This document shows positions 17,317 through 46,000 of a stretch of 64,000 bases of DNA, piece after piece. This DNA comes from Mobula hypostoma (taxonomy: Eukaryota), in contig NC_086097.1 of assembly GCF_963921235.1 (NCBI RefSeq), positions 186,001 to 250,000 of the forward strand, in the 5' to 3' direction. Position 1 is the stretch's first letter. Every line of letters begins with the position of its first letter. Under the pieces are notes generated by a model. The model had not been told where the DNA came from. It made no database searches and worked only from the letters and a program-made list of their open reading frames with translations. The translations under genes were made by a program, and so were the position numbers.

Positions 17317-17486
17317 CTATCTCATCTCCTCAACAGTCCGCTCACCGACTGTTCCATGCACAAATTCTCAACTCCCCAGTGTTTGCATCCACTCACACCC
17401 ACCCCTTGCATGCATTTAACAAACTCATGGTAAAAGCTCAGCCTTGTTCTGGTTTTAAATGTGGAAGCCAAACAAGTGACAGAGTG

Positions 17487-17709
17487 CAAACACGTGGAAA
17501 TCTGCAGATGCTGGAAATTCAAGCAACACACATCAAAGTTGTTGGTGAATGCAGCAGGCCGGGCAGCATCTCTAGGAAGAGGTACAGTCAACGTTTCAGG
17601 CCAAGACCCTTCGTCCTGACGAAGGGTTTCGGCCCGAAACGTCGTCTGTACCTCTTCCTAGAGATGCTGCCTGGCCTGCTGTGTTCACCAGCAACTTTGA
17701 TGTGTGTTG
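17487..17709. mobile_element. Palindromic Penelope-like terminal-repeat insertion with hammerhead motif
   Basis: Inverted arms ~17523-17615 / 17618-17710; 14-bp TSD CAAGTGACAGAGTG (17473-86, 17710-23); CTGACGA...GAAACGTC at 17616-17643. Confidence 0.9.
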
Positions 17710-17760
17710 CAAGTGACAGAGTGAATAAGATAAAGTGAACAGCAGACACTGAACCACTAC

Positions 17761-17933
17761 CTGTGACAATGAACCATATTGGTCTGGGTATCTTCCCAGG
17801 TGGTTTTGATCTCTCTCAGTGCCTGATGGATCTCGTGCTTCTTGGCTTCACTGGTGTGGTCCAGCAATAAATCTGCCTTCACCTGCACCTTATGTATCCA
17901 CATGCTTCCTTCAGGTTCCTTAGCCAAAATTTC
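17761..17933 (-). CDS. SYNE3: Nesprin-3 (SYNE3)-like second coding exon (173 nt, spectrin repeat)
   Basis: Not in the ORF track. Reads EILAKEPEGSMWIHKVQVKADLLLDHTSEAKKHEIHQALREIKTTWEDTQTNMVHCH, matching human KICQLEPEGRVRVDLVLRMAEALLACCPGDQKPGILARLKDIKAQWEETVTYMTHCH. Acceptor ttttatgtttgatag|GAA is phase 0 and fits the upstream exon; donor CAG|gtagtg. The next exon was not found, so the gene probably continues left of the window. Confidence 0.88.
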
Positions 17934-17980
17934 CTATCAAACATAAAAAAAATAAGGGAAGAGATAAAGATTGGCATGTA

Positions 17981-18229
17981 CATCGAAACATCAAAACATA
18001 TATGGAGATGTATCATTTTCATCCTAAACTAAACCATTCCAAGGTGTTCTGGTGGCAGCCCGCAAGTGTCAACATGCTTCTGGCACCAACACTAACCCTA
18101 ACCCAAATGTGGGAAGAACCTAGAACACCAAGAGGAAACCCATGCAGTCATGGGGAGAACATACAAGCTCCTAACAAACAGTGGAAGGAATTGAACCCTG
18201 ATCACTGGCCACTATTCTACTGTGTTGCC
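17981..18229 (-). mobile_element. Degenerate tRNA-derived V-SINE (HE1-like)
   Basis: Minus strand has B-box GGTTCAATTCC followed by a V-domain-like TGTTCTCCCCATGACTGCATGGGTTTCCTC...TTCTTCCCACA. Confidence 0.7.
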
Positions 18230-18276
18230 ACAAATAAAAAGTTGCCAATTTTTAAACAGTTGATTAACTCTAGTGA

Positions 18277-19716
18277 CTTGTTACACACACCTGTTAGGGT
18301 GCATTCTCCAGTTACCTTATAAGTAGCCTTCAGCCAGGAGCAGATGTCATCAGGTGGTTCCTAACCTTCACCGAGTGTTTTGACCCTTAACCACGACACC
18401 CTCCAGTTGCCAAATCACTGCCCGTCTGCTCCTGGCTTCCAGCTCCCCTCCTCTCGCCTACTCCAAATCCAACAAGAAGCTCGTTCTGCCTCTTCCCCAT
18501 CCTACGAACTGCTTGTTTTTTGCTCTTTTCGTTCAGGCCCAGATCTGACAACAACCGCCATGCTGATTTGGCTGGGAAACCTCTGCAGCCAATCTCCACA
18601 GGGAACAACCATGCCTGCCATCCCTTGTCTTTACACTCCTGCAGTAAAGGGCTGGTACTTCAAGGCCTTTCTCTCGTGGGCCTCTTCTCATCCCTCCTCC
18701 CACGGCACAGTCAACTCGACCAGAATTATTTTCTTGTCTTCCATTGACCACCGTACAATGTCCGGGCGTAGGATTGTGTGCACATCTGGGGAACTGCAAC
18801 CTCCTTTCCACATCGACCCTCATCTCCCAGGACCTGGCCGTTAGCAGCAGATTGGGCTTTGGTTGTTCGGTTACGAAAGGCCTGGCTCCCTCTTTGATGA
18901 AGGTGATGGCCTTCCTCAAATCTGTGCCAGCCATCCTCTTCTTGCATCTCTCCCGCTCTAGTGTGTCAGCAAGAGCCAGAAGCACCTTATCATGGCGCCA
19001 TCTACACCATCCTTGAGTTAGAGCTGTTTTACATCCAGACAGTATATGAGCCAGTGTCCTCTTTTTGACCACAGAGCTTACAGATCGGGTCCTCTCCCAT
19101 CCCTCATGTGTACAGATGTAATGGTGAAGGAAGGGTGTAATACACGGATCGCAAGAGGAAGGAAATACGGAAGGGCTCCAGTCTCCATAACTCTGCTCAT
19201 GAGATCTTGTGCTTAGGCAGATCCCATTTTGTCCAGGCACCCTGGGACCCTTGTTCCACTGTCTTTGAAATCTGCTTCTCTTCCTCACGGATCCGTACTT
19301 CTGCCTGTATCATGTCTCGCCTGTTCCCTATGCTTACGTTTCCCCACTTCTGGAAGTGAACTGAGCTGAGGTCTTGCTGCCCGACGCAGGGGTTGCCGAT
19401 GATATCTCGCAGCTTCAGAGAGCACACTGCCTCCTCCACAGCTGCGTTGGCTGCCCACTTATGCCCAGATATGGTTGTAACGCCTGCTCGCTTTACGAGA
19501 CGTCATTAGAATCTCTCAAGCTTAATAAAGCTCTGCATTTTGCCACCTTGAATTCCTCCACAACAGATGACAGGGGAAGCTGCAGTTGCCCAGACGAATG
19601 TAAAGGCCCACTGAAGAGAAGCTTGGGGAAACTCCCAACCATCTCTGCAGGTGCTTGTTGGTTTTCCTCTCGATGCCCTCTACAACAGTCATGGGAACTC
19701 ATAAAGTGTGAAGAGC
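18277..19716 (-). mobile_element. 5'-truncated Hero-like (RLE-type) non-LTR retrotransposon
   Basis: Frameshifted ORF with CCHC knuckle CKLCGQK/RTLAHILSGC, WRHDKVL, restriction-like endonuclease RPDIVRWS...IILVELTVPWEE and PVEIGCRGF. Flanked by 113-bp direct repeats. Confidence 0.88.
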
Positions 19717-20751
19717 CAAGCTCCTAACAAACAGTGGCAGGAATTGAACCCTGATCACTGGCCACTATTCTACTGTGTTGCCACAAATAAAAAGTTGCCA
19801 ATTTTTAAACAGTTGATTAACTCTAGTGAGAACCAGGCTGAATGTTGCAAACAAGAGAAAATCTGCAGATGCTGGAAATCGAAGCAACACCACACAAAAT
19901 GCTGGAGGAACCTAGCAGGCCAGGCAGCATCTATACAGTCGACGTTTCAGGCCAAAATCCTTCAGCAGGACTGGAGAAAGAAAGGTGAGTAGTAGATTTA
20001 AAAGGTGGGGGAAGGGGACAGAGAAACACCAGGTGATAGGTGAAACCTGGAGGGGGAGGGATGAAGTAAAGAGCTGCAAAGTCGACTGGTGAAAGAGAGA
20101 GAAAGCCATGGAAGAAAAAAAGGGGGAGGGACATATCAGAATGGGAATGGGAAGTGGTCACTGGGACATCTGGCTTGTTCTGGCGAACTGAGCATAGATG
20201 CTTGGTGAAGCCGTCTCCCAATCTACGTCGGGTCTCACTGATATACAGAAGGCCACACCATGAGCGCGAACACAGTAAATGACCCCAACAGACTCACAGG
20301 TGAAGTGTCGCCTCACCTGGAAGGACTGCTTAGGGCCCTGAATGGTAGTGAGAGAGGTGGTGTAGGAACAGGTGTAGCACTTGTTCTGCTTGCAAAGATA
20401 AGTGCCAGCATGGAGATCAGTGGGGAGGGGCAAATGAACAAGAGAGTCTCGTAGGGAGCAATCTCTGCAGAATGCAGAATGTTGGGGGGGGGGGAAGAAA
20501 GAAAGTTATGCTTGGTGGTGGGATCCTGTTGGAGGTGGTGGAAGTTTTGGAGAATTATGTGCTGGACAGGGAGGCCGGTGGGGTGGTAGTGAGGACAAGA
20601 GGAACCCTATCCCTGGTAGGGTGGCGGGAGGGTGGGTTAAGAGCAGACTACGTGAAATGGAAGAGATGCGGTTGAGGGCAACGTTGATGGTGGAGGAAGG
20701 GAAACTCCTTTCTTTGAAAAAGAAGACTATCTCCTTTGTTCTGGAATGTAA

Positions 20752-21346
20752 AGCTTCATTCAAGAGGTCTAGAATACAAGAGCAGGGATGTGATGCTGAG
20801 GCTTTATAAGGCACTGCTGAGGCCTCACCTTGAGTATTGTGAACAGTTTTGGGCCCCTTATCTTAGAAAAAATGTGCTGGCATTGGAGATGGTCCAGAGG
20901 AGGTTCAGAAAGATGATTTCAGGAATGTAAGAGTTATCATATGAGGAATGTTTGAAGGCTCTGGGTCTGTACTCGCTGGAATTCAGAAGGATGATGGAGG
21001 ATCTCATTGAAACCTTTCGAATGTTGAAAGGCCTAGACAGAGTAGATGTGGAAAGGATGTTTCCCATGGCGGGAGAGTCGAGGACAGCCTCAGGATAGAG
21101 GAGTGCCCTTTCAAACGAAAGATGCGGAAAAATCTCTTTAGCCAAAGGATGATGAACTTGTGGAATTTGTTGCCACATGCAGCTGTGGAAGCCAGTTCGT
21201 TGGTCGTATTTAAGGCAAAGATTGATAGGTTCTTGATTGGACATGACATCAAAGGTTACGGGACAAGGCCAAGAACTGGGGTTGAGGAAGGGGAAAAAAA
21301 AAAGGATCAGCCACGATTGATTGGCAGAGCAGACTCAATGGGCCAG
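20752..21346 (+). mobile_element. CR1 3' fragment (last ~30 bp displaced to 23600-23630)
   Basis: HLEYCEQFWAP motif; the 3'UTR is interrupted at gggcca|atggcct. Confidence 0.85.
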
Positions 21347-23598
21347 ATAGAAACATAGAAAATAGGTGCAGGAGTAGGCCATTTGGCCCTTCGAGCCTGC
21401 ACCGCCATTTATTATGATCATGGCTGATCATCCAACTCAGAACCCCGCCCCAGCCTTCCCTCCATACCCCCTGATCCCCGTAGCCACAAGGGCCATATCT
21501 AACTCCCTCTTAAATACAGCCAATGAACTGGCCTCAACTGTTTCCTGTGGCAGAGAATTCCACAGATTCACCACTCTCTGTGTGAAGAAGTTTTTCCTAA
21601 TCTCAGTCCTAAAAGGCTTCCCCTTTATCCTCAAACCGTGACCCCTTGTTCTGGACTTCCCCAACATCGGGAACAATCTTCCTGCATCTAGCCTGTCCAA
21701 TCCCTTTAGGATTTTATACGTTTCAATCAGAACCCTCTCAATCTTCTAAATTCCGATGAGTACAAGCCCAGTTCATCCAGTCTTTCTTCATATGAAAGTC
21801 CTGCCATCCCAGGAATCAATCTGGTGAACCTTCTTTGTACTCCCTCTATGGCAAGGATGTCTTTCCTCAGATTAGGGGACCAAAACTGCACACAATACTC
21901 CAGGTGTGGTCTCACCAAGGCCTTGTGCAACTGCAGTAGTACCTCCCTGCTCCTGTACTCGAATCCTCTCGCTATAAATGCCAGCATACCATTCGCCTTT
22001 TTCCACCGCCTGCTGTACCTGCATGCCCACTTTCAATGACTAGTGTATAATGACACCCAGGTCTCGTTGCACCTCCCCTTTTCCTAATCGGCCACCATTC
22101 AGATAATAATCTGTTTTCATATTTTTGCCACCAAAGTGGATAACTTCACATTTATCCACATTAAATTGCATCTGCCATGAATTTGCCCACTCACCCAACC
22201 TATCCAAGTCACTCTGCATCCTCTTAGCATCCTCCTCACAGCTAACACTGCCACCCAGCTTCGTGTCCTCCGCAAACTTGGAGATGCTGCATTTAATTCC
22301 CTCATCCAAGTCATTAATATATATTGTAAACAACTGGGGTCCCAGCACTGAGCCTTGCGGTACCCCACTAGTCACCGCCTGCCATTCTGAAAAGGTTCCG
22401 TTTATTCCCACTCTTTTCTTCCTGTCTGCTAACCAATTCTCCATCCACATCAATACCTTACCCACAATACCGTGTGCTTTAAGTTTGCACACTAATCTCC
22501 TGTGTGGGACCTTGTCAAAAGCCTTTTGAAAATCCAAATATACCACATCCACTGGTTCTCCCCTATCCACTCTACCGGTTACATCCTCAAAAAATTCTAT
22601 GAGATTCGTCAGACATGATTTTCCTTTCACAAATCCATGCAGACTTTGTCCGATGATTTCACCGCTTTCCAAATGTGCTGTTATCACATCTTTGATAACT
22701 GACTCCAGCAGTTTCCCCACCACCGACGTTAGGCTAACCGGTCTATAATTCCCCGGTTTCTCTCTCCCTCCTTTTTTAAAAAATGGGGTTACATTAGCCA
22801 CCCTCCAATCCTCAGGAACTAGTCCAGAATCTCACAAGTTTTGAAAAATTATCACTAATGCATCCACTATTTCTTGGGCTACTTCCTTAAGCACTCTAGG
22901 ATGCAGACCATCTGGCCCTGGGGATTTATCTGCCTTTAATCCCTGCAATTTACCTAACACCACTTCCCTACTAACAAGTATTTCGCTCAGTTCCTCCATC
23001 TCACTGGACCCTCTGTCCCCTACTATTTCTGGAAGATTATTTATGTCCTCCTTAGTGAAGACAGAACCAAAGTAATTATTCAATTGGTCTGCCATGTCCT
23101 TGCTCCCCATAATCAATTCACCTGTTTCTGTCTGTAGGGGACCTACATTTGTCTTTACCAGTCTTTTCCTTTTTACATATCTATAAAAGCTTTTACAGTC
23201 AGTTTTTATGTTCCCTGCCAGTTTTCTCTCATAATCTTTTTTCCCCTTCCTAATTAAGCCCTTTGTCCTCCTCTGCTGAACTCTGAATTTCTCCCAGTCC
23301 TCAGGTGAGCCACTTTCTCTGGCTAATTTGTATGCTTCTTCTTTGGAATTGATACTATCCCTAATTTCTCTTGTCAGCCACGGGTGCACTACCTTCCTTG
23401 ATTTATTCTTATGCCAAACTGGGATGAACAATTGTTGTAGTTCATCCATGCAACCTTTAAATGCTTGCCATTGCATATCCACCGTCAATCCTTTAAGTGT
23501 CATTTGCCAGTCTATCTTAGCTAATTCACGTCTCATACCTTCAAAGTTACCCCTCTTTAAGTTCAGAACCTTTGTTTTTGAATTAACTATGTCACTCT
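21347..23598 (-). mobile_element. 5'-truncated young CR1 family A
   Basis: ORFs 22040-22801 and 22832-23536; near-identical to 924-2900. Confidence 0.95.
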
Positions 23599-26500: not shown

Positions 26501-28203
26501 CAAGTTCCTGCCCGATAGCTTCATATTTCCTCTTACTCCAATTAAACGTCTTCCTAACTTGGCTGTTCTTATCCCTCTCCAATGCTATGGTAAATGAGAC
26601 AGAATTGTCTCCAAAATGCTCTTCCACTGCGAGATCTGACACCTGATCAGGTTCATTTCCCAATACCAGATCAAGTACAGCCTCTCCTCTTGTAGGCTTA
26701 AAGCAGAACAACATTGGCTATCCTCCAATCCTCTGGTACCTCTCCAGTCGTTCAGGATGTTTTAAATATCCCGGCAATTTCTGCACACCTCCCATAGGGT
26801 CTCAAGGAACACCTTGTCAGGCCCTGGGAATCTATCCACCCTGATCTGCCTCAGGGTAGCAAACACCTCCTCTTCTGTAATCTGTACTGAGCCCATGAAG
26901 TTGATGCTACTTTGCCTCACTCCTATTGACTCTATCCATCTCCTGAGTAAATACTGATACAGAGAATTCATTGAAGATCTCTCTCATCTGTTTTGGCTAC
27001 ACACATGGTCTTCCAAAGGACCAATCTTGTCCCTTGCAATCTTTCTGCTCTTTATACATCTGTAGAGTCCCTTAGGGTTCTTCCTCACCTTGTCTGCTAA
27101 AGCAACTTCATACCTTCTTGTAGCCTTCCTGATTTCTGTCTTAAGTGTCTCTTGCATTTCTTGTACTCCATCAGCACCGCATTTATTCCTACTTGCCTAT
27201 ATCTGCTGTGCACCTCCTTTTTTCTCTTAACCAGGGCTTCACTATCTCCTGAACATGAAGGTTCCCTACACTTGTTATCTTTATCTTTTTTTCTGACAGG
27301 TATACACAAGCTTTGTCCCCTCAAAATTTCATATTTGAAGGCCTCCCACTTTCCAAGTACAACTTTGCCAGAAAACAGCCTGTCCCAATCCACATTTCTA
27401 ATACCATCAAAATTGGTCTTTCTCCAGTTTAGAATCTCAACCTGTGGACCAGACCTATCTTTCTGTATATTTACTTTGAAACGAATGGCATTTCGGTGAC
27501 TGAATGCAAAGTGTTCCCCTACACAAATTTCTGTCACCTGCCCTGTCTCATTCCCCCAATAGCAGATCCAGCATCATACGCTCTCTCATTAGGACTTCTA
27601 CGTACTGATGAAGGAAACTTTCTTGAATACATCTCACAACTTCTATCTGGAAGATTGTTCACTCTCCCTCTTAAGAATGCCAAGGATTCAATCTGAGATG
27701 TCCCAGACCCTGGAACCCCGAAGGCAACATACCATCCAGGAATCTTGTTCTCGCCCACAGAATCTCCTGTCCATTCCTCTAACTAATGAGTCTGCTATCA
27801 CTGCAGTACGCCTTTTCTACCCGCTTCCGTTTTATGACACAGGGCCAATGCCAGATACCCAACCACTTGACTTTCCTGTTAAGTCATCCTTCGAATAGTA
27901 TCCAAAGTGGTATACTTGTTCTTAAGGGGGAATGGCTGCAGGAGTACTCTGCAATGGCTCCTTAATCCCTTTCCCCTGCCGACTGTCACCCAGTTTCCTG
28001 TCCTGCACCTTCGGTGTAACTACCTCTCTAAGTGTCTTATCTATCACTCCTTCCACCTCCCGAATGTCCAGTTCCAGCTCCAACTCCTTAAAACTGATTG
28101 TTAGAAGCTGCAGCTGGATGCACATATCACAGTTGTCGTCGTCAGGGACACTGGAGGTCTCCCTGCCTTCCCACATCCCGCAAGAGGAGCACTGAACTAT
28201 CCT

Positions 28204-28392
28204 CAAAGTTGCTGGTGAACGCAGCAGGCCAGGCAGCATCTATAGGAAGAAGCGCAGTCGACCTTCGTCAGGGTCTCGGCCTGAAACGTCGACTGCGCTT
28301 CTTCCTATAGATGCTGCCTGGCCTGCTGCGTTCACCAGCAACTTTGATGTATGTTGCTTGAATTTCCAGCATCTGCAGAATTCCTGTTGTTT
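28204..28392. mobile_element. Palindromic Penelope-like insertion inside a CR1 ORF1
   Basis: Perfect 59-bp inverted arms 28204-28262 / 28288-28346; 15-bp TSD GCACTGAACTATCCT (28189-203, 28393-407). Confidence 0.92.
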
Positions 28393-29384
28393 GCACTGAA
28401 CTATCCTGCCTGGCGTCTCTACTGTCCTAACAGACATAAAGGGAAGGAAAAAAAACTTTACCTAGAGCTTTTCTGTTTTTTTTACTGAAGCCTCAAAGAG
28501 CTAAAGCCTCAAGATCACCACTCTAATCTGTCCATTCAGATGGTGGCTACAGCGCTTGGCCCTGCCTTCCTTAAATTTGCTCTTGCTAATCAATCCCAAA
28601 CACTGAATGGTCGTCGGTCAAAGATCAATTACACTTCCTCGATCTGCCACTGCCTTTTTCCACTCAGTCAATGGACCTGACAGAAATCTCAAATCCTCTC
28701 CTCTCAAACCTCTGATGTCCAGATTGGTCACTGGTCAAAGCTCAATCCTGGTTTGACTCCCCTACCCTGGTGATAAAAAACTCTGGCCACCATAAACTTC
28801 AGTAAGGTCACCCTCAGCCTCTCATTATCAAGCCTTCCAGTCCCAGTAACATTCTATTGAATTTGTTGCACTCTTTCTAGTTTAAAGATATCTTTCTTAT
28901 TGCTGGGTGACCAGAACTGCACACAATACTCCAAGTGTAGTCTCATCAACAACTGGCATAGATGCAACATAACGTCCCAACCCCTGTACTCAGTGTGCGC
29001 ACTGATGAAGGAAACTCCGCTAATGCCTTCTTCACCACCCTCTCAACCTGTGGCACCACTTTCAGAGAACTAAGAACCTGAACCCATAGGCCTCTCGATT
29101 CTATCACACTCTCCAAGACTTGGCCATTTACTGTGCAGGTACTGCCTGGTTTAACCTACCAAAAAGTAATACTTCACACTTGGAGTTAAGCTCCATCTTC
29201 CATTCTTTGGTCCACTTCCCCAGTACGTCTGGATCCTGATGACAACAGTCTTCACTGTTCATTACACCACCAATTTTAGTATCATCCATAAAATTACTAA
29301 CCACATTAACAATGTCATTAAAGTCATTAATATAGATGACAAACAACAGTGGGACTAACACCAATCCCTGGAGCCTCAAATCTC

Positions 29385-29545
29385 AGAATCAGAACCAAGT
29401 TTATTGTCACTGACATATGCTGTGAAATTTGTTTCAGTAGTACAGTGCAAGATATAAAAAATAAACAAGTTAAAATAAACAAGTTACAATAAACAAGTTA
29501 GTGAAAGAGAATTGTAAGGTGGTGTTCATGGACCATTCAGAATTC
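29385..29545 (-). mobile_element. Rex/L2-type LINE 3' tail fragment
   Basis: cagaatcagaaccaagtttattgtca tail; shares ccattcagaa with 31027-31180. Confidence 0.65.
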
Positions 29546-30485
29546 AGAATGATCCATTTCCCTCTCAGTCCCAATCTCCTGCCTTCTCCCCCGTAACCTT
29601 TCATGCCGTGACTAATCAAGAACCTATCAATCTCTGCTTGAAATACACTCAATAACCTGGTCTGCACAACTGCCTATGGCAAAGAACTCCACAGATTCAC
29701 CACCCTCTGGCTAAAGAAATTCCTCCTCATCTCCGTTCTAAATGGATGTCCTCTATTCTGAGACGGTGCCCTCTGGTCTCAGACTCTCCCACTATAGGAA
29801 AGATCCACCATAAACCTTTTATTCTCAGAATCACTCTTGTGAACCTCCTCTGATTCCTCTCCAACATCAACACATCCTTTCTTAGATAAGGGACCCAAAA
29901 ATGCTCACAATACTCCTCAAGTGATACATCAGCATTACATCTTTGCTTTGATTTATAGTCCTCTTGAAATGAAGACTAACACTGAATTTGCCTTCCTCAC
30001 TGACTCAACCTGCAAACTAACCTTATGGAATCCTGCATGAACACTCCCAAATACTAAATGAACTCAGCAGGTCAAGCAACATCCCTGAAGGTAAATAAAC
30101 ACTAGACAGAACGGACAACATACCACCCTGTGCTATGAATCATACGAAACAACCATAAATGCAGTTGTGGTCATGAGTCCTAAACCGTGGAACACATCAC
30201 AACAGCGTACCCAGTGAGTCTTTTCTGAGGGAGGTACTTCATTCTGCCACTTGGCATCAGAAGCTATTGAGTGGATTGACAGATCAGACATCCAGTGAGA
30301 TTTCTGTCATATAAAAGGTAGTATAATCGTTTACAAAAATCATATTTAAAGCACTTGTCTCTGGGTATGCTTCCAGATTATGGAGGGCTATTATATCACA
30401 CACTACTACAAGGATCAGACAACACCCCGTGTCTGCATCACTTTAAGCTTCCTACACAATCAGCTGAATGCTGATGTTAACAAAT

Positions 30486-30665
30486 CTTGAAATGATGTTT
30501 CAAATCTCTTACTAGCTCTTCTTTCAGTTAGACCTGACGAAGGGTCTCGGCCCGAAGCGTCGACTGTACCTCTTCCTAGAGATGCTGCCTGACCTGCTGT
30601 GTTCACCAGCAACTTTTATGTGTGTTACTTGAAATTCCAGCATCTGCAGATTTCCTCAGGTTTGC
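30486..30665 (+). mobile_element. Penelope-like terminal-repeat insertion (hammerhead core mutated GAAA>GAAG)
   Basis: 10-bp TSD GTTAACAAAT (30476-85, 30666-75). Confidence 0.88.
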
Positions 30666-32685: not shown

Positions 32686-33003
32686 GGTCAGAGGCTTTTC
32701 CCAGGGCTGAAATAGCTATCACGAGAGGGCACAGTTTTAAGGTGCCTGGAAGTAGGTGCAGAGGAGGTGTCAGGGTAAGTTTTTTTATGCAGAGAGTTCT
32801 GAGTGGATGGAATGGGCTGCGGGTAATGGAGGCAGATACGATAGGGTCTTTTAAGAGACTCCTGGATAGGTACATGGAGCTGAGAAAAATAGAGGGCTAT
32901 GGGTAACCCTAGGTAATTTCTAAGGTAAGTACATGTTCAGCACGGCATTGTGGGCCAAAGAGACTGTATTATGTTGTAGTTTTTCTATTTTTCTATGTTT
33001 CTA
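32686..33003 (+). mobile_element. CR1 family C 3' end
   Basis: FPRAE.AITRGH motif and tail tttctatgtttcta. Confidence 0.9.
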
Positions 33004-34803: not shown

Positions 34804-35120
34804 TTTAGGGAATCCTGCACAAGTACTCCCAAGTCCCTCTACGCCTCAGTTTTTTGTATTTTCTCTCCACTTAGAAAATAGTCAACCCTTTCATTTCTTT
34901 TGCCAAAGTGCATGATCATACACTTCCAGCACTATATTCCTCTGCCATCTCTTTGCCCATTCTCCAAATCTAATGCCTTCTGTAGCCTCTCTACTTCCTC
35001 AAAACTACCTGCCCCTCCATCTATCTTTTCATTGTCTGCAGATTTTGCAAGAAAGCCATCAATTCCATCATCCAAATCATTGACATATAACATCAAAAGA
35101 ATCGGTCCCAACACAGACCC

Positions 35121-38100: not shown

Positions 38101-38993
38101 GACACAAAGGGTGGAGGTGTTGTGGATAGTGTGGAGGGCTATTAGAGGTTACAGTGGGACATTGATAGGATGTAAAACTTGGCTGAGAAGTGGCAGATGG
38201 AGTTCAATCCAGATGAGTGTGAGGTGGTTCATTTTGGCAGGTCAAAATGATGGCAGAATATAGTATTAATGGTAAGACTCTTGGCAGTGTGGAGGATCAG
38301 AGGGATCTTGGGGTCTGAGTGCATTGGACACTCAAAGCAGCTGCGCAGGTTGACTCTGTGGTTAAGAAGGCGTACGGTGTATTGGCCTTCACCAATTGTG
38401 GAATTGAATTTAGGAGCAGACAGGTAATGTTGCAGCTATATCGGACCCTGGTCAGACCCCACTTGTAGTACTGTGCTTAGTTCTGGTTGCCTCACTACAG
38501 GAAGGATGTGGAAACCATAGAATGGGTGCAGAGGAGATTTACAAGGATGTTGCCTGGATTGGGGAGCATGCCTTATGAAAACAGGTTGAGTGAACTCGGC
38601 CTTTTCTCCTTGGAGTGATGGAGGATGAGAGGTGACCTGATAGATGTGTATAAGATGATGAGAGGCATTGATCATGTGGATAGTCAGAGGCTTTTTCCCA
38701 GGGCTGAAATGGCTGCCTCAAGAGGGCACAGGTTTAAGGTGCTGGGGAGTAGGTTCACAGGAGATGTCAGGTGTAAGTTTTTTACGCAGAGGGTGGTAAG
38801 TGTGTGGAATGGGCTGCCAACAACAGTGGTGGAGGCGGATATGATTAGGTCTTTTAAGAGACTTTTGGATAGGTACATGGAGCTTAGAAAAGTAGAGGGC
38901 TATAGGTAAGCCTTGTAATTTCTGAGGTAGGGACATGTTTGGCACAACTTTGTGGGCCGAAGGGCCTGTATTGCGATGTAGGTTGCTCTGTAT
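35121..38993 (+). mobile_element. Near full-length CR1 family C, decayed
   Basis: ORF1 esterase (35124-36033), ORF2 from YFNARSI through RT to the 3'UTR gggccgaagggcctgt. Confidence 0.94.
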
Positions 38994-39967
38994 TGTGAGG
39001 GGATCCAGGAGTGCCCCTGTAAACTGTTTGAAGAGAGACAGAGAGAGACATTCATCATTGATGGTTTGTTTGGAAAGGAGAGAGAGAGAGACAAAGATTA
39101 ACGGTTGGACTGTCACTTTAAGGCATTGGAAGTAGCTTTGGATTTTTACTGAGTTTGGAGTTGGAGATAGCACCAAGCAGCTCTTAAGTTTCTATGGTGA
39201 CCGAAGGCGGTGTTATTTAATGGACACTCGATGTTGTGATTTACAGCAGGTTGTTGATGTTACTTTCAAGGACTTGTTGCCTGCTTGTGCACTTCTTTGC
39301 AGAAAAGGAAGGAGGGACTCTTTGAATGACAGGTGATGTTCAGCCTGGTGGGATAAATAGGAGGTCAGATGATACAGACCTCAGGCACATGATCTGCACA
39401 CTGAATGAGCATTGTTGTGCCTGCAGGGAAAGTGAGTTTTGGAGGATCAATCAGGCAGATTGATCCAAAAATTGCTATTCCAGCGAAGAAGAAGGGGTTG
39501 ACTGGTGGGGAGTTGTCTATGTGTCCACCCTTGCTGGGGTGATAGCTCCACCACAGGAAAACCGGTCCCCCTGGTTAAAGTCACAGTCGAGGATGATGAG
39601 GATGACGAGAAGATTGACGGCATCAGCTCACCTGAAGACTCAACTCTCTCTCTCTCTCTCTCTCTCTCTCGCTCTCCATTGCTATTCAACTAAATACCAT
39701 GAACTGAACTGAACTTTACTCAACATCATAAGACTGTATCTTTTTACCCCGAGACTGAAAGAAGCTTGGTTTTCATATATATATATATATATATTCCACA
39801 CTTACTTTTATATATATTAAATCATTGCCAACCTGTTTGATTTATCTACATTTATATTACTGTATTGCGTAGTTACTAATAAATATTAGTAGTTTATAGC
39901 AATACGAGACTCCAAAGTGGTTTCTATTTCTGCTGGTTTCTTAATCCCCGTCACGGGGTACGTGACA
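38994..39967 (+). mobile_element. Solo LTR
   Basis: TGTGA...TGACA termini; AATAAA at ~39878; 4-bp flanks GTAT/CTAT (one mismatch); homologous in its 3' half to 41568-42983. Confidence 0.75.
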
Positions 39968-41563
39968 CTATCAAATTTCATATTGTGATCACTGCCTCCA
40001 GAGAGTCCTTTTACCTTAATTTAATTACCTTAATTAAACTTCCGGTTCATTACCTAACACCCAATCCAGTATAGCTGATCCCCTAGTAGGCCCAACAACA
40101 AACTGCTCTAAAAAGCCATCTCATTGGCATTCAACAAACTCACTCTCTTGGGATCCATTTCCAACCCTATTTTCCCAATCAGCTTGCATGTTCACATCTA
40201 CAATGATTATCATAACATTGCCCATTTGACACACCTTTTCTATTTCCTCTTGTCATCCGTGGTCCATATCCCAGCTACTGTTGGGAGACCTGTATATTAC
40301 TGCCATCAGGGTCCTTTTACCATTGCAGTTTCTTAACTCAGTCCACAAAGATTCATCATCTTCCGATCCTATGTCACATCTTTCTACTGATTTGATGCCA
40401 TTCTTTACCAGCAGAGCCATGCCTCCCCCTCTGCCCACTTTCCTATCCCTTTAAACCTTCCCCAACCACTCTAAACAAACCTGCTCATGAGAATATTGCT
40501 TCCCCTTTTGGGTTCAGGTACAACCCGTCACTTATGATAGGTTATCCCTCCTCCAGAAGAGATCCCAGTGATCCAAGAACCTGCCCCCTGCACCAGCTTC
40601 TCAGCCACATATTAATTTGCCAAATCATCTTGTTTATACACTCACTGGTGCGTGGCACAGGCAGCAATCCAGAAATTACTACCTGGGAGGTCCTGCTTCT
40701 CAACTCTCTGAATTCTCTTTTCAGGGCCTCTTTGCTTTTCCTTCCTATGTCATTGGTACCAATATGTACCAAGACATCTGGCTGCTCTCCCTCCTCCAAA
40801 ATGTGAATGTGATCATGACATCCCTGACTCTGGCACCTGGGAGGCAATATACCATTCAGGTGTTTCATCTACAGAATCTCCTGTCCATTCCCCTGACTAT
40901 TGAGTCCCCTATCACTACCGCTGCCCTCTTTTTCCTCTTTTCCTTCTGCACCATGGACCCATGCTCAGTGCCAGTAACCCAAGCTCCATGATATTCCCCT
41001 GGGAGGTCATACCCCACAACGGTATCCAAAACCGTATATTTATTATCGAGGGGAATGGCCACGGGGTGCTCTGCACTATCTGCCTAATCACAGTTCCAGT
41101 CACCTCATTACTCACCTGCAACATCGGGGTGATTATTTGCCTCGAACTCTGATCGCTATCTCCTTACTCTCCTGTACAAGCTGTAGGCCATTCAGATGCT
41201 GTTCCAGATTCCTAACACGTTCTTCAAGGAGCTGTGGCTCTGTGTAATGTGCATATGGTTACATCTGGCATGAAGACCACACAGCCATTTACTGCACTAG
41301 GTATGGTAAGAGAGAACAAAAAGGGAACCTTAACAGAAGCTTATCCAGAGCCAACGCCTCTTCCGAGTCAAACTCTCCTTTGAGCCAAAACCTGACACTC
41401 CTACTCTCACCACTGGCCGTCCCGCTTGCCCCTTCTGTACTTCCAAACAAGTGTCATTGCCCTGTGAGAAATCTTGTCACTGTGGCCTGTTCCTGCCGCT
41501 GATTGGGCCATCGGAATAAGCCTGAACACCCGCGAAGCTCTCCTTATGAACAAGTGTTGCCTA
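39968..41563 (-). mobile_element. Fragmented CR1 APE and ORF1/5'UTR
   Basis: VHIGTNDIGR and GDSIVRG motifs; APE GGGMALLV. Confidence 0.85.
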
Positions 41564-41567
41564 CCTG

Positions 41568-42794
41568 TGTCATGTACCCCGTGACGGGTTAAAGAACCAG
41601 CAGAAATGGAAAACACTTTGGAGTCCAGCATTGCTATTAACTAATGGCATTTATTAGTAACTATGCAATACGGTAATATAAATGCAGATAAATCAAAGAG
41701 GTTAGAAATGATTATACATAAGTAATTGTGGAAATATATGAAAACCAAGCTTCTTCAAGTCTAGGGGTAAATAGATAATCTTACGATGATGGGTAAAGTT
41801 CAGTTCAGTTTGTGGTATTGACTTGAGTAGTGATGGAGAGAGAGAGAGGGAGAGATTTGAGTCTTCAGGTGAGCTGACGCCGTCGATCTTTCCATTGTCT
41901 CTGAAATCCTTTAGAAGTCACCGACTGTGACCACAACAAAGGGGACCGTTCTTTTGTGGTGGAATTATCAACCCAGGCAAGGAATGGACACACAAACAAC
42001 CTCCCACCGGTCACACACATCAAAGTTGCTGGTGAACGCAGCAGGTCACGCAGCATCTCTAGGAAGAGGTACAGTCGACGTTTCAGGCCGGGACCCTTCG
42101 TCAGGACTAACTGAAGGAAGAGCTGGTAAGAGATTTAAAAGTGGGAGGGGGAGGGGGAGATCCAAAATGATAGGAGAAGACAGGAGGGGGAGGGATGGAG
42201 CCAAGAGCTGGACAGGTGATTGGCAAAAGGGATATGAGAGGATCATGGGACAGGAGGCTCAGGGAGAAGGTAAAAGCCGGGGGGGAACCCAGAGGATGGG
42301 CAAGGGGTATAGTCAGAGGGACAGAGGGAGAAAAAGGAGAGAGGGAGAAAGAATGTGTGTATATAAATAAATAATGAATGGGGTATGAGGGGGAGGTGGG
42401 GCATTAGTGGAAGTTAGAGAAGTCAATGTTCATGCCATCAGATTGGAGGCTACCCAGACGGAATATAAGGTGTTGTTCCTCCAACCTGAGTGTTTCTCCC
42501 ACCGGTCACTCCCTTTTCACATTGCGAGAGCCATTGATCAATCCTCCAAAACCCACTTTTTCTGTGGGCACAACAAAGCTCATTCAGTGTCCAAAACCAT
42601 GTGTCTGTCCGTTTATCATCTGACCTTCTATTTATCTCACCATGCCGAATACTAGCTGTCACTCAAACAGCTCCTCCCTTCTCTGTCTGTAAGAATTTCC
42701 AAGCAGGCAGCGTCCTTGTAGAAATGTAAACATGCTGCAGAAAACCTATAACATCATCCAAAGCTATTTTTGTCTGTGTCTATCTGTGTCTGTC

Positions 42795-42853
<59 letters not shown>

Positions 42854-42910
42854 AACAAGAAGTCGGTGTTAAATAACTCTCTTTTTAACAAGATGTTTGT
42901 GTTGGGCATA

Positions 42911-42941
<31 letters not shown>

Positions 42942-42983
42942 TCAAAAGCACAGTTCATAGGGGTAATTCAGGACCCCGTCACA
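41568..42983 (-). mobile_element. Solo LTR (related family, opposite orientation), interrupted by a Penelope insertion
   Basis: TG...CA termini; perfect 4-bp TSD CCTG (41564-67, 42984-87); internal (CT)n tracts. Confidence 0.8.
42015..42495 (-). mobile_element. Penelope-like 3' fragment with intact hammerhead core
   Basis: 14-bp TSD CTCCCACCGGTCAC (42001-14, 42496-509); minus strand AGTC-CTGACGA-AGGGTCCCGGCCT-GAAAC-GTC-GACT at 42108-42073. Confidence 0.9.
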
Positions 42984-43029
42984 CCTGCAAGAAGCCTTGT
43001 TGCTGTGGCCTGCTGCTGATTGGGCTGTC

Positions 43030-46000
43030 TGAATTCTAATGAATACAGGCCCAGACCCATCATATACTCTTCATATGACAAGCCTGGAGTCACTTTCTTT
43101 TTAGCACATCTTTCCTTTGATAAGGCAGCTGTGGAAGCCACGTCTTTATGTTCCCAATACTACAAGTGAAGCCTCACCAGTGCTCTAGAAAGTTTCAACA
43201 TTACATCTTTGCCCTTGTTTTCTTGTCCTCTTGAAATGAATGCTAACATTGCTTTTGCCTTTCTCACCACAGACTCAACCTACAAATTAACCTTCAGGGA
43301 ATCCTGCACAAGGACTATTAAGTCCCATTTGTGCCTCAGTTTTTTGTATTTTCTCACAATTTAGAAAATAGTCAACCCTTTCATTTCTTCTACCAAAGTA
43401 CATGAAAATACACATCTTGACACTGTATTCCATCTGCCATTTCTTTGCCCACTCACAACACGCTGGAGGAACTCAGCAGGTCGGGCAGCATCCGTGGAAA
43501 AGATCAGTCGACGTTTTGGGCCGGAACCCTTTGTCAGGAAGGCCTGAAACGTCGACTGAGCTTTTCCACGGATGCTGCCTGACCTGCTGAGTTCCTCCAG
43601 CGTGTTGTGAGTGTTGCTTTGACCCCAACATCTGCAGATTATTTTGTGTTTATTTCTTTGCCCAACCTCTCAATCTGTCTTAAGTCCTTCTGTAGTCTCT
43701 CTACTTCCTAAAAACTACCTGCCCCTCCACCTGTCTTCATATCGTCTGTAAACTTTGCAACAAAACCATCAATTCTATCATCCAAATCATTCACATATAA
43801 TGTAACAATAATCAGTTCCAACAGAGACTTCCTGTGGAACATCACTAGTCATTGGCAGCCAGCCAGAAAAGGCTTCCTTTATTCCACTCTGCCTCTTGTC
43901 AATTAGTGACTGCTTTATCCATGCTAGAATCTTTCTTGTCATACCATGGGCTTGTAGATTGTTAAGCAGCCTCATGTGTGGCACCTTGTCAAAGGCCTTC
44001 TGAAAAATCAAATACCAACCTCAGCCATTTCTCCTTTGTCCATCCTGCTTGTTTTTTCTTCAGTGAATTCCAACAGATTTGTAGGCAAGATTTTCCCTTG
44101 AGAAAACCATGCTGGTCCATTTTATTTCATGATAGAAACATTGAAACAAAAACACAGCACAATGTAGGCCCTTCTGCCCACAATGCTGTGCCAAACATGT
44201 ACTTACTTTAGAGATTACCTAGGGTCACCCATAGCCCTCTATTTTTCTAATGTACCTATTCAGGAATCTCTTAAAAAACCCTATCGTATCCACCTCCACC
44301 ACCATCGCCGGCAGCCCATTCCACGCACTCACCACACTCTGTATAAAAAAAACTTAACTCTGACATCTCCTCTGTACCTACTTCCAAGTACTTAAAACCG
44401 TGCCCTCTTGTGATAGCCATTTCAGCCCTGGGGAAAAGCCTCTGACTATCCACACTATCAATGCCTCTCATAATCTTATACACCTCTATCAGGTCACCTC
44501 TCATCCTCTTCCCTCCAAGGAGAAAAGGCCAAGTTCACTCAACCTATTCTCGTAAGGCATGCTCCCCAGTCCAGGCAACATCCTTGTAAATCTCCTCTGC
44601 AACCCTTTCTATAGCTTCCACATCTTTCCCGTAGTGAGGTGACCAGAACTGAGCATAGTATTCTAAGTGTGATCTGACCAGGGTCCTATATAGCTGCAAC
44701 ATTACCTCTCAGCTCTTAAACTCAATCCCACGGTTGATGAAGGCCAATGCACCGTATGCCTTCTTAAGCAGAGTCAACCTGCGCAGCAGCTTTAAGTGTC
44801 CTATGGACTCAGACGCCAAGATCCCTCTGATGCTCTACACTGCCAAGAGTCTTACCATTAATATTCTGCCATCATATTTGACCTACCAAAATGAACCACC
44901 TCACACTTATCTGGGTTGAACTCCATCTGCCACTTCTCAGCCCAGTTTGCATCCTGTCAATGTCCCGTTGTAACCACTGACAGCCCTCCACACTATCCAC
45001 AACACCTCCAACCTTTGTGTCATCAGCAAATTTACTAACCCATCCTTCCACTTCCTCATCTAGGTCATTCCCGAAGAGAAGGGGTCCCAGAACAGAACCC
45101 TGAGGCACACCACCGACCTCCATGCAGAATATGACCTGTCTACAACTACTCTTTGCCTTCTGTGGGTAAACCATAAAGCAAGGTCCCCTTGAATTCCATG
45201 CCTCCTTATTTTCTTAATAAGCCTTGCATGGGGTACCATATCAAATGCCTTGTTGAAATCCATATACACTGTAGAGTGAGTTTTTGGGTAGATGATTCGT
45301 TTACACTTAAATGACTTTGTGCACCAGACTTCTATTTTAACAAAGTACTGTGGATTGAGTCCACAACAATGCACTTCCTAAAATGCTGTGAATAACAGAT
45401 GCTTCTGGTGCCGTAGTTTGACCAGATGTTGTAGTTTCGAAGACCGTATTATCTATACTTTATAAATATTAATTGTCTTCTATGTTAGCACGTAAAATGC
45501 CAAATAAATGTATTGTGGATTTAACTTGCATTCCTAAAGGCTGTGTCGGCGTCGGAAGGAAAGGATGAAGTCAGAAGGTATGATGTTTGTATGTAGCTTC
45601 AAAAGGAATCATTGTCCATGCATTGTCTATAACTTTTTAAGTAGCGATTGCCTTTGTGTTTAGCATTTAAATATCAATCCTCCACACTGTCAAGCGTCTT
45701 ACCATTTATATTATTTTCAAATTTGACCTACCAAAATGAACCACTTCACACTTTTCTGGGTTGAATTCCATCTGCCACTTCTCAGCCCAGTTCTGCATCC
45801 TATCGATGTTCCGCTGTAACCTGTGACAACCCTCCACACTATCCACAACACCCCAACTATTGTGTCATCAGTTAACTTACTAACCCATCCCTCCACTTCC
45901 TCATCCAGGTCATTTATAAAAATCAGAAAGAGGGCAGGTCCCAGAACAGATCCCTGTGGAACACCACTGGTCACCATTCATCAAGCAGAATACGAACCAT

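What the first reader, a model, noticed from the sequence alone, without database searches (positions are those of the whole stretch)
17473..43664. Three palindromic Penelope mini-elements whose fold-back centre lies in the hammerhead motif
Seen: 17487-17709, 28204-28392 and 43452-43651 are ~190-225 bp insertions, each with its own TSD, made of two inverted copies of the Penelope terminal repeat. In all three the inversion point is in or at the CTGAnGA/stem II part of the hammerhead (e.g. CTTCGTC-CT-GACGAAG at 17609-17624). The arms share private variants (59/59 identity at 28204), so both derive from one template, and two subfamilies show the pattern. Known: Penelope-like elements carry minimal hammerheads and often have inverted 5' segments. 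Inference: the ribozyme structure may fix the template-switch point, producing a recurrent MITE-like hairpin class that could yield dsRNA or siRNA.
Basis: partly seen in the sequence, partly recalled or inferred. Interest (0 to 1): 0.72.

Follow-up and report, generated by a model that had tools for sequence, protein, structure and literature searches.

The report
Truncated fold-back Penelope retroelement insertions
The three small hairpin-shaped insertions are real, but they are the shortest versions of the head-to-head double copies that Penelope-like jumping genes usually leave behind, each made afresh at insertion, with the join falling most often at the front edge of the element's small ribozyme.

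Summary
All three elements are inverted-repeat insertions with their own 13-15 bp target duplications. Each is built from the last ~100-135 nt of a Penelope-like element (PLE) that carries a minimal hammerhead motif.

They are not a self-spreading MITE-like family. In 68 genomic copies the arms are near-identical, while the central junction differs from copy to copy and each copy has its own duplication. Both arms carry the same subfamily markers. One arm has the 36-45 nt PLE 'tail' and the other stops at the tail's inner end. Fold-backs of the same build run up to 2.9 kb, and one carries a GIY-YIG ORF.

This is the known PLE insertion architecture in its most 5'-truncated form. It fits priming on both target strands at the two PLE start sites.

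Genome-wide pattern counts show a peak where both arms end at the 5' edge of the hammerhead, with a ~5-fold drop just beyond. Junctions also occur throughout the motif and far upstream. The cause of the edge is open. dsRNA or siRNA output was not testable. An earlier scan note on another genome reached the same verdict.

The parts
17473..17486 (.). E1 target-site duplication, left copy (14 bp)
   Evidence: 100% identical to 17710-17723
17487..17522 (-). E1 'tail': 36-nt extension present only on the long arm
   Evidence: the inverted arms start at 17523; the long arm aligns to unit positions up to 134
17523..17615 (-). E1 long arm, paired part. It is antisense on the + strand and holds the antisense hammerhead motif.
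17618..17709 (+). E1 short arm (sense). It has CTGACGA at 17606-17612 and GAAAC at 17626-17630, and ends at the inner start site with no tail.
17710..17723 (.). E1 target-site duplication, right copy
28189..28203 (.). E2 target-site duplication, left copy (15 bp)
28204..28265 (-). E2 short arm (antisense, no tail). Its outer end lies about 8 nt inside the usual site.
28266..28284 (.). E2 junction: a rearranged fragment of the hammerhead region (antisense CTTCGTCAG joined to sense GGTCTCGGCC...). This junction is unique among the 8 related copies.
28285..28392 (+). E2 long arm (sense). Its unpaired 3' extension, the tail, is 28348-28392.
28393..28407 (.). E2 target-site duplication, right copy
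43439..43451 (.). E3 target-site duplication, left copy (13 bp)
43452..43522 (-). E3 short arm (antisense, no tail). With 43523-43535 it carries a full antisense hammerhead motif that has decayed core positions.
43523..43540 (.). E3 junction
43541..43651 (+). E3 long arm (sense, inner end inside helix II). The 38-nt tail is 43614-43651.
43652..43664 (.). E3 target-site duplication, right copy
62400..63029 (+). Collinear (not folded-back) copy of the same PLE family: pLTR, hammerhead motif (62896-62929), unit and tail (62993-63029). I used it as the coordinate reference, with G of GTCCTGA = 0 at 62896. The copy may extend further upstream.
30478..30664 (+). Solo 5'-truncated copy with tail, flanked by the 10-bp repeat GTTAACAAAT. 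Its 5' end lies ~58 nt upstream of the motif.
   Evidence: read by eye
63682..63781 (+). Solo copy without tail, flanked by the 12-bp repeat GCACAGTTTTAA. Its 5' end lies a few nt upstream of the motif.
   Evidence: read by eye
42013..42493 (-). Collinear copy without tail (pLTR + motif + unit)

Best explanation
Each mini-element is a dead-on-arrival insertion of an endonuclease-encoding Penelope-like element (PLE). It was made in a single integration event in the head-to-head configuration typical of PLEs.

Shown:
- Two copies of the same 3'-terminal unit lie in inverted orientation between a 13-15 bp target duplication.
- One copy ends at the outer 3' end (with the tail). The other ends 36-45 nt further in (without it).
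- The inner junction is different at almost every locus.
- Both arms carry the same subfamily markers.
- The same build exists at every size up to near full length.

Inferred mechanism:
- After a staggered cut, both target strands prime reverse transcription on the same template lineage, one at each of the two adjacent PLE start sites.
- The two like-sense cDNAs run towards the template's 5' side.
- Their 3' ends anneal at short self-complementary stretches. Each is then extended on the other, which provides second-strand synthesis for both arms.
- In the mini-elements both cDNAs stopped within or just at the 5' edge of the hammerhead region.
- That edge is a preferred stop. The likely reasons are that a template RNA begins there, that the enzyme halts there, or both. 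The motif's built-in palindromes (GTCGAC, GGCC, GTC..GAC) then favour pairing.

The elements need not do anything afterwards. If transcribed they would fold into long hairpins.
For: Insertion status:
- Exact flank repeats of 12-16 bp occur in 50 of 68 loci, mode 14. The shifted control reaches at most 9.

Junctions made anew:
- In the young E2 group the arms differ from the majority at only 9 sites in 8 copies over 64 columns, yet there are 8 different junctions in 8 copies.
- Among the 50 listed of 66 E2-marker fold-backs, by my reading 7 carry one recurrent junction, 6 another and 2 a third. The rest are spread over many forms.

One template lineage:
- The TACAG/TGCAG/CGCAG marker is mirrored in both arms in 30 of 30 E1-type loci (by eye).
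- Shared non-majority sites number 39, against 8.1 +/- 2.9 with shuffled partners (maximum 17 in 200 shuffles). For E3 the figures are 15 against 7.4 +/- 2.3, maximum 14.

Linear sources exist:
- 524 E2-marker arms continue collinearly into the pLTR.
- Among the first 100 of those places there are 3 tandem pairs (305, 3508 and 3513 bp apart), 14 head-to-head pairs (88-3461 bp apart) and 0 tail-to-tail pairs.

Continuum of sizes:
- L071:1647-3677 has a 15-bp TSD and ~868-nt arms at 98% (two abutting arm pairs of 272 and 596 nt).
- L072:5406-8306 has a 17-bp TSD and 1184-nt arms at 99%.
- L070:3282-3676 is a further, smaller example.
- All three lie in 50 kb of arbitrarily chosen genome.

One tail per fold-back:
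- This holds in 9 of 9 evaluable fold-backs that were not chosen by similarity: 3 in the window plus L038, L056, L057, L070, L071 and L072.
- Short-arm outer ends (about position 97 +/- 3) coincide with the 3' ends of tail-less solo copies.

PLE identity:
- The ORF in L072's long arm has a C-terminal GIY-YIG match.
- Its relatives are 52-53% identical over 97-98% of the query. The one I scanned carries RVT_1 plus GIY-YIG.

Literature:
- PMC11167929 (main text): the PLE protein cleaves and extends both target strands and initiates at two adjacent internal sites whose spacing is the tail.
- PMC4209133 (parts 1-2): dual min-HHRs lie ~100-700 bp apart on opposite strands in Schistosoma.

Hot spot:
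- Anchor-pattern counts are 460 / 1721 / 539 / 326 for inner gaps 0-30 / 31-60 / 61-90 / 91-120.
- Scaled 5-nt bins peak at 45-54 (about 447 and 551) and fall to about 103 at 55-59. A gap of 54 means both arms reach the motif's 5' edge.
- E2-marker arms reaching +18, 0 and -9 number 814, 706 and 524.
Against: - Priming on both strands and mutual priming of two cDNAs are inferred, not seen. A single cDNA snapping back on itself gives the same junction sequences.
- Some junctions recur at many loci: 9 of 50 listed places have gap 46 and 9 of 50 have gap 50. A few junctions (…GGAC-TTCG-TTAGTCC…) look as if copied from an existing fold-back. Some secondary copying of fold-backs as units is therefore not excluded.
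- The 68 aligned loci were retrieved by similarity to the window's fold-backs, and the search skips common words. They are not an unbiased sample.
- The unbiased sample is small, about 320 kb.
- The +18 / 0 / -9 counts use exact patterns of unequal length. Part of each drop is therefore substitution, not termination.
- The GIY-YIG match of the L072 ORF (21.4 bits) is just under Pfam's cut-off (22.6).
- No Rfam hammerhead match.
Confidence: 0.75

Rival explanations
1. Self-propagating hairpin family (MITE- or SINE-like). A fold-back master copy is transcribed, and PLE reverse transcriptase copies the whole hairpin RNA from its tail. New copies inherit both arms. The centre varies because the enzyme slips or jumps across the hairpin tip at each round.
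For: - Every one of 40 scored hits for each of the three queries covers the fold-back essentially end to end at 83-97% identity on the query strand.
- Some junction classes recur many times.
- A few junctions look templated by an existing fold-back.
- Mirrored arm markers would also be inherited under this model.
Against: - Retrieval was biased towards fold-backs like the query (one search shows that common words are skipped).
- Junctions are mostly unique even when the arms are <1% diverged.
- Arm lengths form a continuum into the pLTR and up to 1.2 kb, and these cannot arise by deletion from a short master.
- The same junction class occurs on at least three subfamily backgrounds.
- No 5' flank is carried along, and the flanks are unrelated.
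- Short-arm ends coincide with the tail-less 3' end used by solo copies.
Confidence: 0.1
2. Snap-back of a single cDNA. One target strand primes first-strand synthesis from the outer start site. The cDNA 3' end folds back on itself at a short complementary stretch in the hammerhead region and copies itself back towards the target. It stops ~38 nt short, where it is joined to the other target end.
For: - It gives identical arms and the observed junctions. For example...CCCTTCGTC|GACTGT uses the CGTC/GACG pairing within one strand, and I counted 6 such places among the 50 listed.
- The 40-nt motif region is self-complementary: fold -11.6 kcal/mol, with 29 of 200 shuffles as good.
Against: - It gives no reason for the copy-back to stop at the same position as the 3' end of tail-less solo insertions.
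- The commonest junction would need a 3-bp stem with a 2-nt loop within one strand, but pairs readily between two strands.
- Large fold-backs with 270-500 nt unique centres need a long-range fold-back.
- Extension of both strands has been shown in vitro for a PLE (PMC11167929).
Confidence: 0.15
3. The hammerhead RNA fold (or its self-cleavage) itself fixes the template-switch point.
For: Junction and termination density is highest at and within the motif.
Against: - The mode lies at the 5' edge, which the enzyme reaches only after it has copied, and so unwound, the whole motif.
- The predicted cleavage site (GTC|GAC, position 30|31) is not a preferred end. The arms nearly always include GTCGAC.
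- HHR catalytic mutants did not change insertion products in vitro (PMC11167929, main text).
- Alternative causes sit at the same spot. One is an initiator-like TTAGTCC / CCAGTCC. Another is a pyrimidine tract plus AG with TACTAAC upstream. A third is a possible ACTAACT/AGTTAGT hairpin just upstream (read by eye), although the MFE fold of 62860-62935 does not draw that hairpin.
- Non-fold-back copies also seem to end there.
Confidence: 0.15

Closest known systems
Canonical EN+ Penelope-like element insertion units (pLTR, adjacent inverted 5'-truncated copy, one-sided 30-40 bp tail). Sources: Craig et al. 2021, PMC8557442 (passages read); Schostak et al. 2008, PMC2377424 (passages read).
   Same: - Inverted 5'-truncated copy abutting the direct copy.
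- Tail at one end only.
- Hammerhead motif near the 3' unit.
- Variable size of the inverted repeats.
- RT plus C-terminal GIY-YIG ORF in long copies.
- TSDs.
   Different: - Here both copies are cut down to ~60-135 nt, so nothing but the terminal unit remains.
- The junction positions were counted genome-wide and show a sharp mode at the motif's 5' edge. I did not find that stated in the papers I read.
Two-strand cleavage/extension and two internal RT start sites of the Anolis Poseidon PLE in vitro (Frangieh et al. 2024, PMC11167929, main text read)
   Same: - Tail length and position relative to the hammerhead (~100 nt downstream).
- Two alternative 3' ends.
- Both strands usable as primers.
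   Different: - That work did not reconstitute joined two-armed products.
- The coupling seen here (one arm from each start site, 9 of 9) and the joining step are inferred from genomic copies of another species' element.
L1 twin priming (inverted/5'-truncated LINE-1 insertions). This is recalled knowledge. The term appears in the abstract of PMC2837659 in the listing.
   Same: - The second target strand primes a second cDNA.
- The two cDNAs are joined by microhomology.
- A TSD flanks the whole.
   Different: - In twin priming the second primer anneals internally, so the two parts are different segments of the RNA.
- Here both arms copy the same 3' unit from defined start sites, giving a true palindrome.
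Minimal (dimeric) hammerhead ribozymes of metazoan PLEs (Cervera and de la Pena 2014, PMC4209133, parts 1-2 read)
   Same: - CUGANGA and GAAA boxes.
- Extra nucleotide after A9.
- G10.1-C11.1 pair in the CCGAAAC variant.
- Palindromic ACGU at 15.1-16.1 with no helix III loop.
- Short helix I.
- That paper also notes pairs of motifs on opposite strands 100-700 bp apart.
   Different: - Self-cleavage is untested here.
- No Rfam model matches.
- Many copies, including those in the three elements, are truncated or mutated in the core.
MITEs and fold-back DNA transposons
   Same: Short, palindromic, abundant, flanked by TSDs, and able to form hairpin RNA.
   Different: - The arms are retroelement 3' ends with asymmetric outer ends.
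- TSDs are 12-16 bp and variable.
- Centres are unique per copy.
- There are no transposase-type terminal inverted repeats.
- The elements were made by reverse transcription.
Animal non-LTR retrozymes (bioRxiv 10.64898/2026.07.22.740005, abstract and passages read; PMC7229834, abstract in listing only)
   Same: Non-coding, PLE-related, hammerhead-bearing short repeats.
   Different: Retrozymes are direct tandem repeats thought to act through circular RNA. These are single inverted pairs.

Membership tests
Penelope-like element (EN+, canonical) | Single ORF with a reverse transcriptase followed by a C-terminal GIY-YIG endonuclease | tested here: met
   - L072:6566-7891 (441 aa, in the long arm of a 2.9-kb fold-back of the same family) has GIY-YIG at residues 344-418, E 3.2e-4, 21.4 bits, just under the 22.6 cut-off.
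- Homologues P0001-P0005 are 803-904 aa and 52-53% identical over 97-98% of the query.
- P0004 has RVT_1 at 291-479 and GIY-YIG at 708-751.
- The RT part of this family's own ORF was not in the DNA I held.
Penelope-like element (EN+, canonical) | Partial tandem copies forming pseudo-LTRs | tested here: met
   3 same-strand pairs of the E2-marker unit, 305, 3508 and 3513 bp apart, among the first 100 places. I did not read the sequence between them.
Penelope-like element (EN+, canonical) | 30-40 bp tail at one end, and an adjacent inverted 5'-truncated copy | tested here: met
   - Tails of 36-45 nt on one arm only.
- 14 head-to-head pairs against 0 tail-to-tail pairs.
- Large fold-backs L071 and L072.
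Minimal hammerhead ribozyme of PLEs | Core boxes CUGANGA and GAAA; helices I and II; unpaired nucleotide after position 9; G10.1-C11.1; palindromic 15.2-16.2 | tested here: met
   Read by eye on window 62893-62932 and related copies against the features listed in PMC4209133.
Minimal hammerhead ribozyme of PLEs | Match to a curated hammerhead covariance model | tested here: not met
   0 Rfam matches at gathering score on the whole window and 0 at E <= 10 on 62870-62960. My understanding, not checked here, is that the Rfam models expect a helix III hairpin that this minimal form lacks.
Minimal hammerhead ribozyme of PLEs | Self-cleavage (as dimer) | not testable with these tools
   No assay is possible. 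The RNA runs available were contigs only.
MITE / class II non-autonomous element | Copies propagate as a unit with a fixed internal sequence, symmetric terminal inverted repeats and a short fixed-length TSD | tested here: not met
   - Junctions are unique per copy.
- Outer ends are asymmetric by the tail.
- TSDs are 12-16 bp.
L1-type twin priming product | The inverted segment is a different, upstream part of the template from the direct segment | tested here: not met
   Both arms are the same 3' unit.

The most novel reading that the evidence does not exclude
The thousands of mini fold-backs are a natural record of the unsolved second half of PLE integration.

- They would show that the two adjacent start sites are used in a coupled way: one per target strand, on one template, giving exactly one tail per insertion.
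- They would show that the two like-sense cDNAs prime each other at short palindromes.
- The sharp end at -3..+2 would mark a discrete 5' end of a short template RNA that begins at an initiator-like YYAGTCC right at helix I of the hammerhead.
- The ribozyme would then be the first thing transcribed, and the minimal mobilisable PLE RNA would be only ~100-140 nt long.
Probability: 0.3. Interest if true: 0.6.

Novelty: new member of a known kind. Interest (0 to 1): 0.4.

Why it matters
How Penelope-like elements finish integration is still unknown. The open points are second-strand synthesis, why inverted copies and one-sided tails arise, and what the hammerhead is for.

If the reading here is right, this genome holds thousands of independent, short, easily aligned junctions that can be used to test models of that step. 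They would also locate a preferred end of the template next to the ribozyme.

For genome annotation the practical point is simpler. These abundant hairpins should be masked as PLE fragments. They should not be called MITEs, nor taken as microRNA-like genes on hairpin shape alone.

Tried and rejected
- Rfam scans: 0 matches.
- DNA search of the genome with a single arm: 0 hits, not even the window's own copy. The tool warns that it skips very common words, which I take to be the reason. It could not give an unbiased sample.
- Fetching more genome:
  - 50 kb was granted.
  - A large programmatic census with flanks, tails and TSDs was therefore not possible. The junction lists were classified by eye, and only their coordinates were computed on.
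- RNA evidence: no RNA holder was listed. All 24 runs are contigs, and their 'RNA' label is a guess.
- Laying contigs of X1-X4 on 27700-28900 gave very high multi-copy depth over the element and no clean empty-site joint. The joints 28190->28400 and 28191->28401 carry 5 unlike letters with only 27-29 letters on the shorter side. Nothing follows from this on expression, small RNAs or insertion polymorphism.
- Splicing idea: the hot spot coincides with a 3' splice-site-like signal. However, the sequences preceding arms that start at -3 are the partner arm, not a constant upstream exon (by eye). Templates spliced at that site are therefore not supported.
- Hammerhead cleavage as the source of ends: the predicted cleavage site is not a preferred arm end.
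- Literature searches for a prior description of hairpin, MITE-like or miRNA-like PLE derivatives returned nothing relevant. One search failed on a term format. Supplements of the papers were not opened.

Full report
**Observation**

The three elements are as described. The repeat finder gives the following:
- E1 (17487-17709): a 14-bp direct repeat at its flanks and 93-nt inverted arms, 90% complementary, 2 nt apart.
- E2 (28204-28392): a 15-bp flank repeat and 63-nt arms, 98% complementary, with a 19-nt centre.
- E3 (43452-43651): a 13-bp flank repeat and 73-nt arms, 95% complementary, with an 18-nt centre.

Each arm matches a unit that also occurs as single, direct copies in the window: 30478-30664, 62896-63029, 63684-63781, 42013-42107 and 19847-19971. 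One arm of each element is 36-45 nt longer at its outer end than the other.

**Coordinates and the motif**

I use the collinear copy at 62400-63029 as the ruler, with the G of GTCCTGA (window 62896) as position 0. On that ruler:
- CTGACGA is at 3-9.
- The GGG...CCY stem is at 11-22.
- GAAAC is at 23-27.
- The palindrome GTCGAC is at 28-33, with the predicted cleavage after C30.
- Tail-less copies end near 97.
- The tail runs to about 134.

By eye, this meets the features that Cervera and de la Pena give for the minimal, dimer-type hammerhead of metazoan PLEs (PMC4209133, parts 1-2 read). Those features are the two core boxes, an extra nucleotide after A9, G10.1-C11.1 (in the CCGAAAC variant), a palindromic ACGU in place of a helix III hairpin, and a 4-5 bp helix I. 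Rfam has no match at gathering score or at E <= 10.

In the three elements the motif is incomplete (E2), mutated at G8 and G12 (E3), or altered at the GTCGAC palindrome (E1).

**What the element belongs to**

Copies that are not folded back continue upstream of the motif into a pyrimidine-rich region shared between loci. The hammerhead is therefore not the start of the repeat, and the inversion points are true breakpoints.

In 50 kb of arbitrarily chosen genome I found three larger fold-backs of the same family:
- L071:1647-3677 has a 15-bp TSD and ~868-nt arms at 98% (two abutting arm pairs of 272 and 596 nt), with a 270-nt single-copy centre.
- L072:5406-8306 has a 17-bp TSD and 1184-nt arms at 99%, with a 500-nt centre.
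- L070:3282-3676 is smaller.

Each has the tail on one side only.

The long arm of L072 holds a 441-aa open frame ending ~290 nt before the motif. It has a C-terminal GIY-YIG match (E 3.2e-4, 21.4 bits, cut-off 22.6). Its best relatives (P0001-P0005) are 803-904 aa proteins, 52-53% identical over 97-98% of the query. The one I scanned has RVT_1 followed by GIY-YIG. That domain order is the hallmark of canonical endonuclease-positive Penelope-like elements (PMC8557442, passages).

**Are the fold-backs copied as units or made each time?**

Each of the three window elements has many end-to-end relatives in the genome. For each query, 40 of 40 scored hits cover essentially the whole element, from 1650-2727 first-look candidates. 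That sample is biased. The search skips common words, and an arm alone finds nothing.

I aligned the copies (8, 30 and 30 loci, each set including the window's own) with 25-bp flanks:
- Flanks are unrelated.
- 50 of 68 loci have exact flank repeats of 12-16 bp, mode 14. A shifted control gives at most 9.
- Arms are nearly identical between copies.
- The centre differs by insertions and deletions.

In the youngest group (E2), only 9 arm sites in 8 copies depart from the majority over 64 columns, yet all 8 junctions differ.

An exact-pattern search for fold-backs with E2 markers on both arms finds 66 places with inner gaps in the modal range. Of the 50 listed, I read 7 with one recurrent junction, 6 with a second and 2 with a third. 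The rest are spread over many forms.

Linear sources with the same markers exist. 524 arms continue collinearly to at least -9. Among the first 100 of those places there are:
- 3 same-strand pairs, 305, 3508 and 3513 bp apart (tandem or full-length spacing);
- 14 head-to-head pairs, 88-3461 bp apart;
- no tail-to-tail pair.

Arm length is thus a continuum from ~60 nt to over a kilobase. That cannot come from deletions in a short master copy.

**Both arms come from one template lineage**

- A three-state marker next to the palindrome (TACAG, TGCAG, CGCAG) is mirrored in both arms in 30 of 30 E1-type loci (by eye).
- Sites where both arms carry the same non-majority base number 39 in the E1 set, against 8.1 +/- 2.9 when partners are shuffled (maximum 17 in 200).
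- For E3 the figures are 15 against 7.4 +/- 2.3 (maximum 14). For E2 they are 2 against 0.
- The window's own three elements have none of these shared sites.

**Outer ends**

In all 9 evaluable fold-backs that were not picked by similarity, one arm has the tail and the other stops near position 97. These are the three in the window plus L038, L056, L057, L070, L071 and L072. Position 97 is the same place where tail-less solo copies end.

[quoted passage not shown] Frangieh et al. showed three things for an Anolis PLE protein (PMC11167929, main text):
- It cleaves and extends both target strands.
- It starts reverse transcription at two adjacent internal sites whose spacing is the tail.
- Hammerhead mutants do not change the products.

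The simplest reading has four steps:
1. Each target strand primes one cDNA, one from each start site, on the same template lineage.
2. The two like-sense cDNAs meet.
3. Their 3' ends pair at short self-complementary stretches.
4. Each is extended on the other.

These steps are inferred. A single cDNA snapping back on itself predicts the same junctions. It does not explain why the second arm stops at the tail-less 3' end.

**The hot spot**

The palindromic pattern ACAGTCGACG-gap-CGTCGACTGT counts fold-backs by the length between the two anchors. A gap of 54 means both arms reach position 0.

| Gap (nt) | Whole-genome count | Reversed control |
|---|---|---|
| 0-30 | 460 | 0 |
| 31-60 | 1721 | 1 |
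| 61-90 | 539 | 0 |
| 91-120 | 326 | 0 |

I scaled the first 50 places of each of the first three lists to the bin totals. The 5-nt bins from gap 10 to gap 89 run about 101, 64, 92, 175, 200, 241, 207, 447, 551, 103, 129, 119, 129, 75, 32, 32. So there is a peak at 45-54 and a five-fold drop at 55.

In the modal list, I judge that in about 40 of 50 places one arm starts within -3..+2, while the partner ends anywhere from 0 to 23. Recurrent classes fit pairing at tiny palindromes, for example GTCAGGAC, CTAG, GGCC, and GACG with CGTC.

For E2-marker arms, 814 reach +18, 706 reach 0 and 524 reach -9. The patterns differ in length, so part of each drop is substitution. Even so, the steepest loss per nucleotide is in the 9 nt at the 5' edge.

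On contig C1, comparing the listed places by eye, 8 arms that reach 0 but do not match at -9 belong to listed fold-backs and 7 do not. The edge therefore seems to apply to cDNA synthesis in general.

But the mode is at the motif's 5' edge, not in CTGAnGA/stem II, and junctions extend far upstream.

**What sets the edge is open**

- The enzyme reaches the edge only after copying the whole motif, which argues against the ribozyme fold as a block.
- The predicted cleavage site is not a preferred end.
- Right at the edge, the parent reads TACTAAC, a pyrimidine tract, then CAG-TTAG-TCCTGA. Other PLE families in this genome have a pyrimidine tract plus AG before TCCTGA.
- This looks like an initiator (YYANWYY, recalled consensus). 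It also looks like a 3' splice site.
- In D. virilis the Penelope intron ends at helix I (PMC4209133), and the promoter is an internal, initiator-type one further upstream (PMC2377424, passages).
- Arms that start at -3 are preceded by the partner arm, not by a constant exon, so spliced templates are not supported.
- A short stem (ACTAACT/AGTTAGT) directly upstream could also stall the enzyme. The MFE fold of 62860-62935 does not draw that stem.

**What was not possible**

The census rests on pattern counts, listings read by eye and about 320 kb of sequence.
- No run on record as RNA was available. Contigs laid on E2 show only multi-copy depth.
- As RNA, E2 would fold into a 59-bp hairpin (-140.7 kcal/mol, z -21.2). 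Whether it is transcribed or yields small RNAs is unknown.

**Verdict**

This is a real, abundant and neatly structured by-product of PLE integration, of a kind already described. It is not a new mobile-element class.

The additions here are:
- the genome-wide junction profile with its sharp edge beside the hammerhead;
- the one-tail rule;
- the mirrored markers.

Together these make the two-strand model of PLE integration directly testable.

Noticed in passing
window 62868-62899, and other PLE families in L052, L060, L061, L067 and window 19960-19975: Directly upstream of the hammerhead motif, every PLE family seen has a pyrimidine tract plus AG. In the young family this is preceded by TACTAAC. 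The signal reads both as a 3' splice site and as an initiator-like YYAGTCC, and the junction hot spot sits exactly there.
   Followed up: partly
L072:3492-5450 (-) and 7999-9225 (-): The 2.9-kb PLE fold-back in L072 interrupts a Ty3/gypsy-type pol frame. RVT_1 lies on one side, and RNase H and integrase domains on the other.
   Followed up: partly
G000:C1:36811984-36812339 and G000:C5:190513355-190513493 (places listed; DNA not fetched): Two E2-marker units lie 305 bp apart on the same strand, which may be a short tandem, retrozyme-like arrangement. A separate head-to-head pair lies only 88 bp apart.
   Followed up: no
places listed, e.g. G000:C1:15878204-15878284, C1:71432160-71432240 and C2:53354139-53354220: Junctions of the form ...GGAC-TTCG-TTAGTCC... 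recur. They look as if one cDNA was copied from an existing fold-back of the common ...CCCTTCG|TTAGTCC... class. This hints that some fold-backs are transcribed and reused as templates.
   Followed up: no
window 63300-63680 and 63782-63900: The tail-less solo PLE copy at 63682-63781 sits inside another interspersed repeat, which continues on both sides of the 12-bp duplication. The host repeat was not identified.
   Followed up: no
window 28351: In contigs of four runs, most depth over this multi-copy position reads G where the window has A. This is a family-level variant, not evidence of editing.
   Followed up: no
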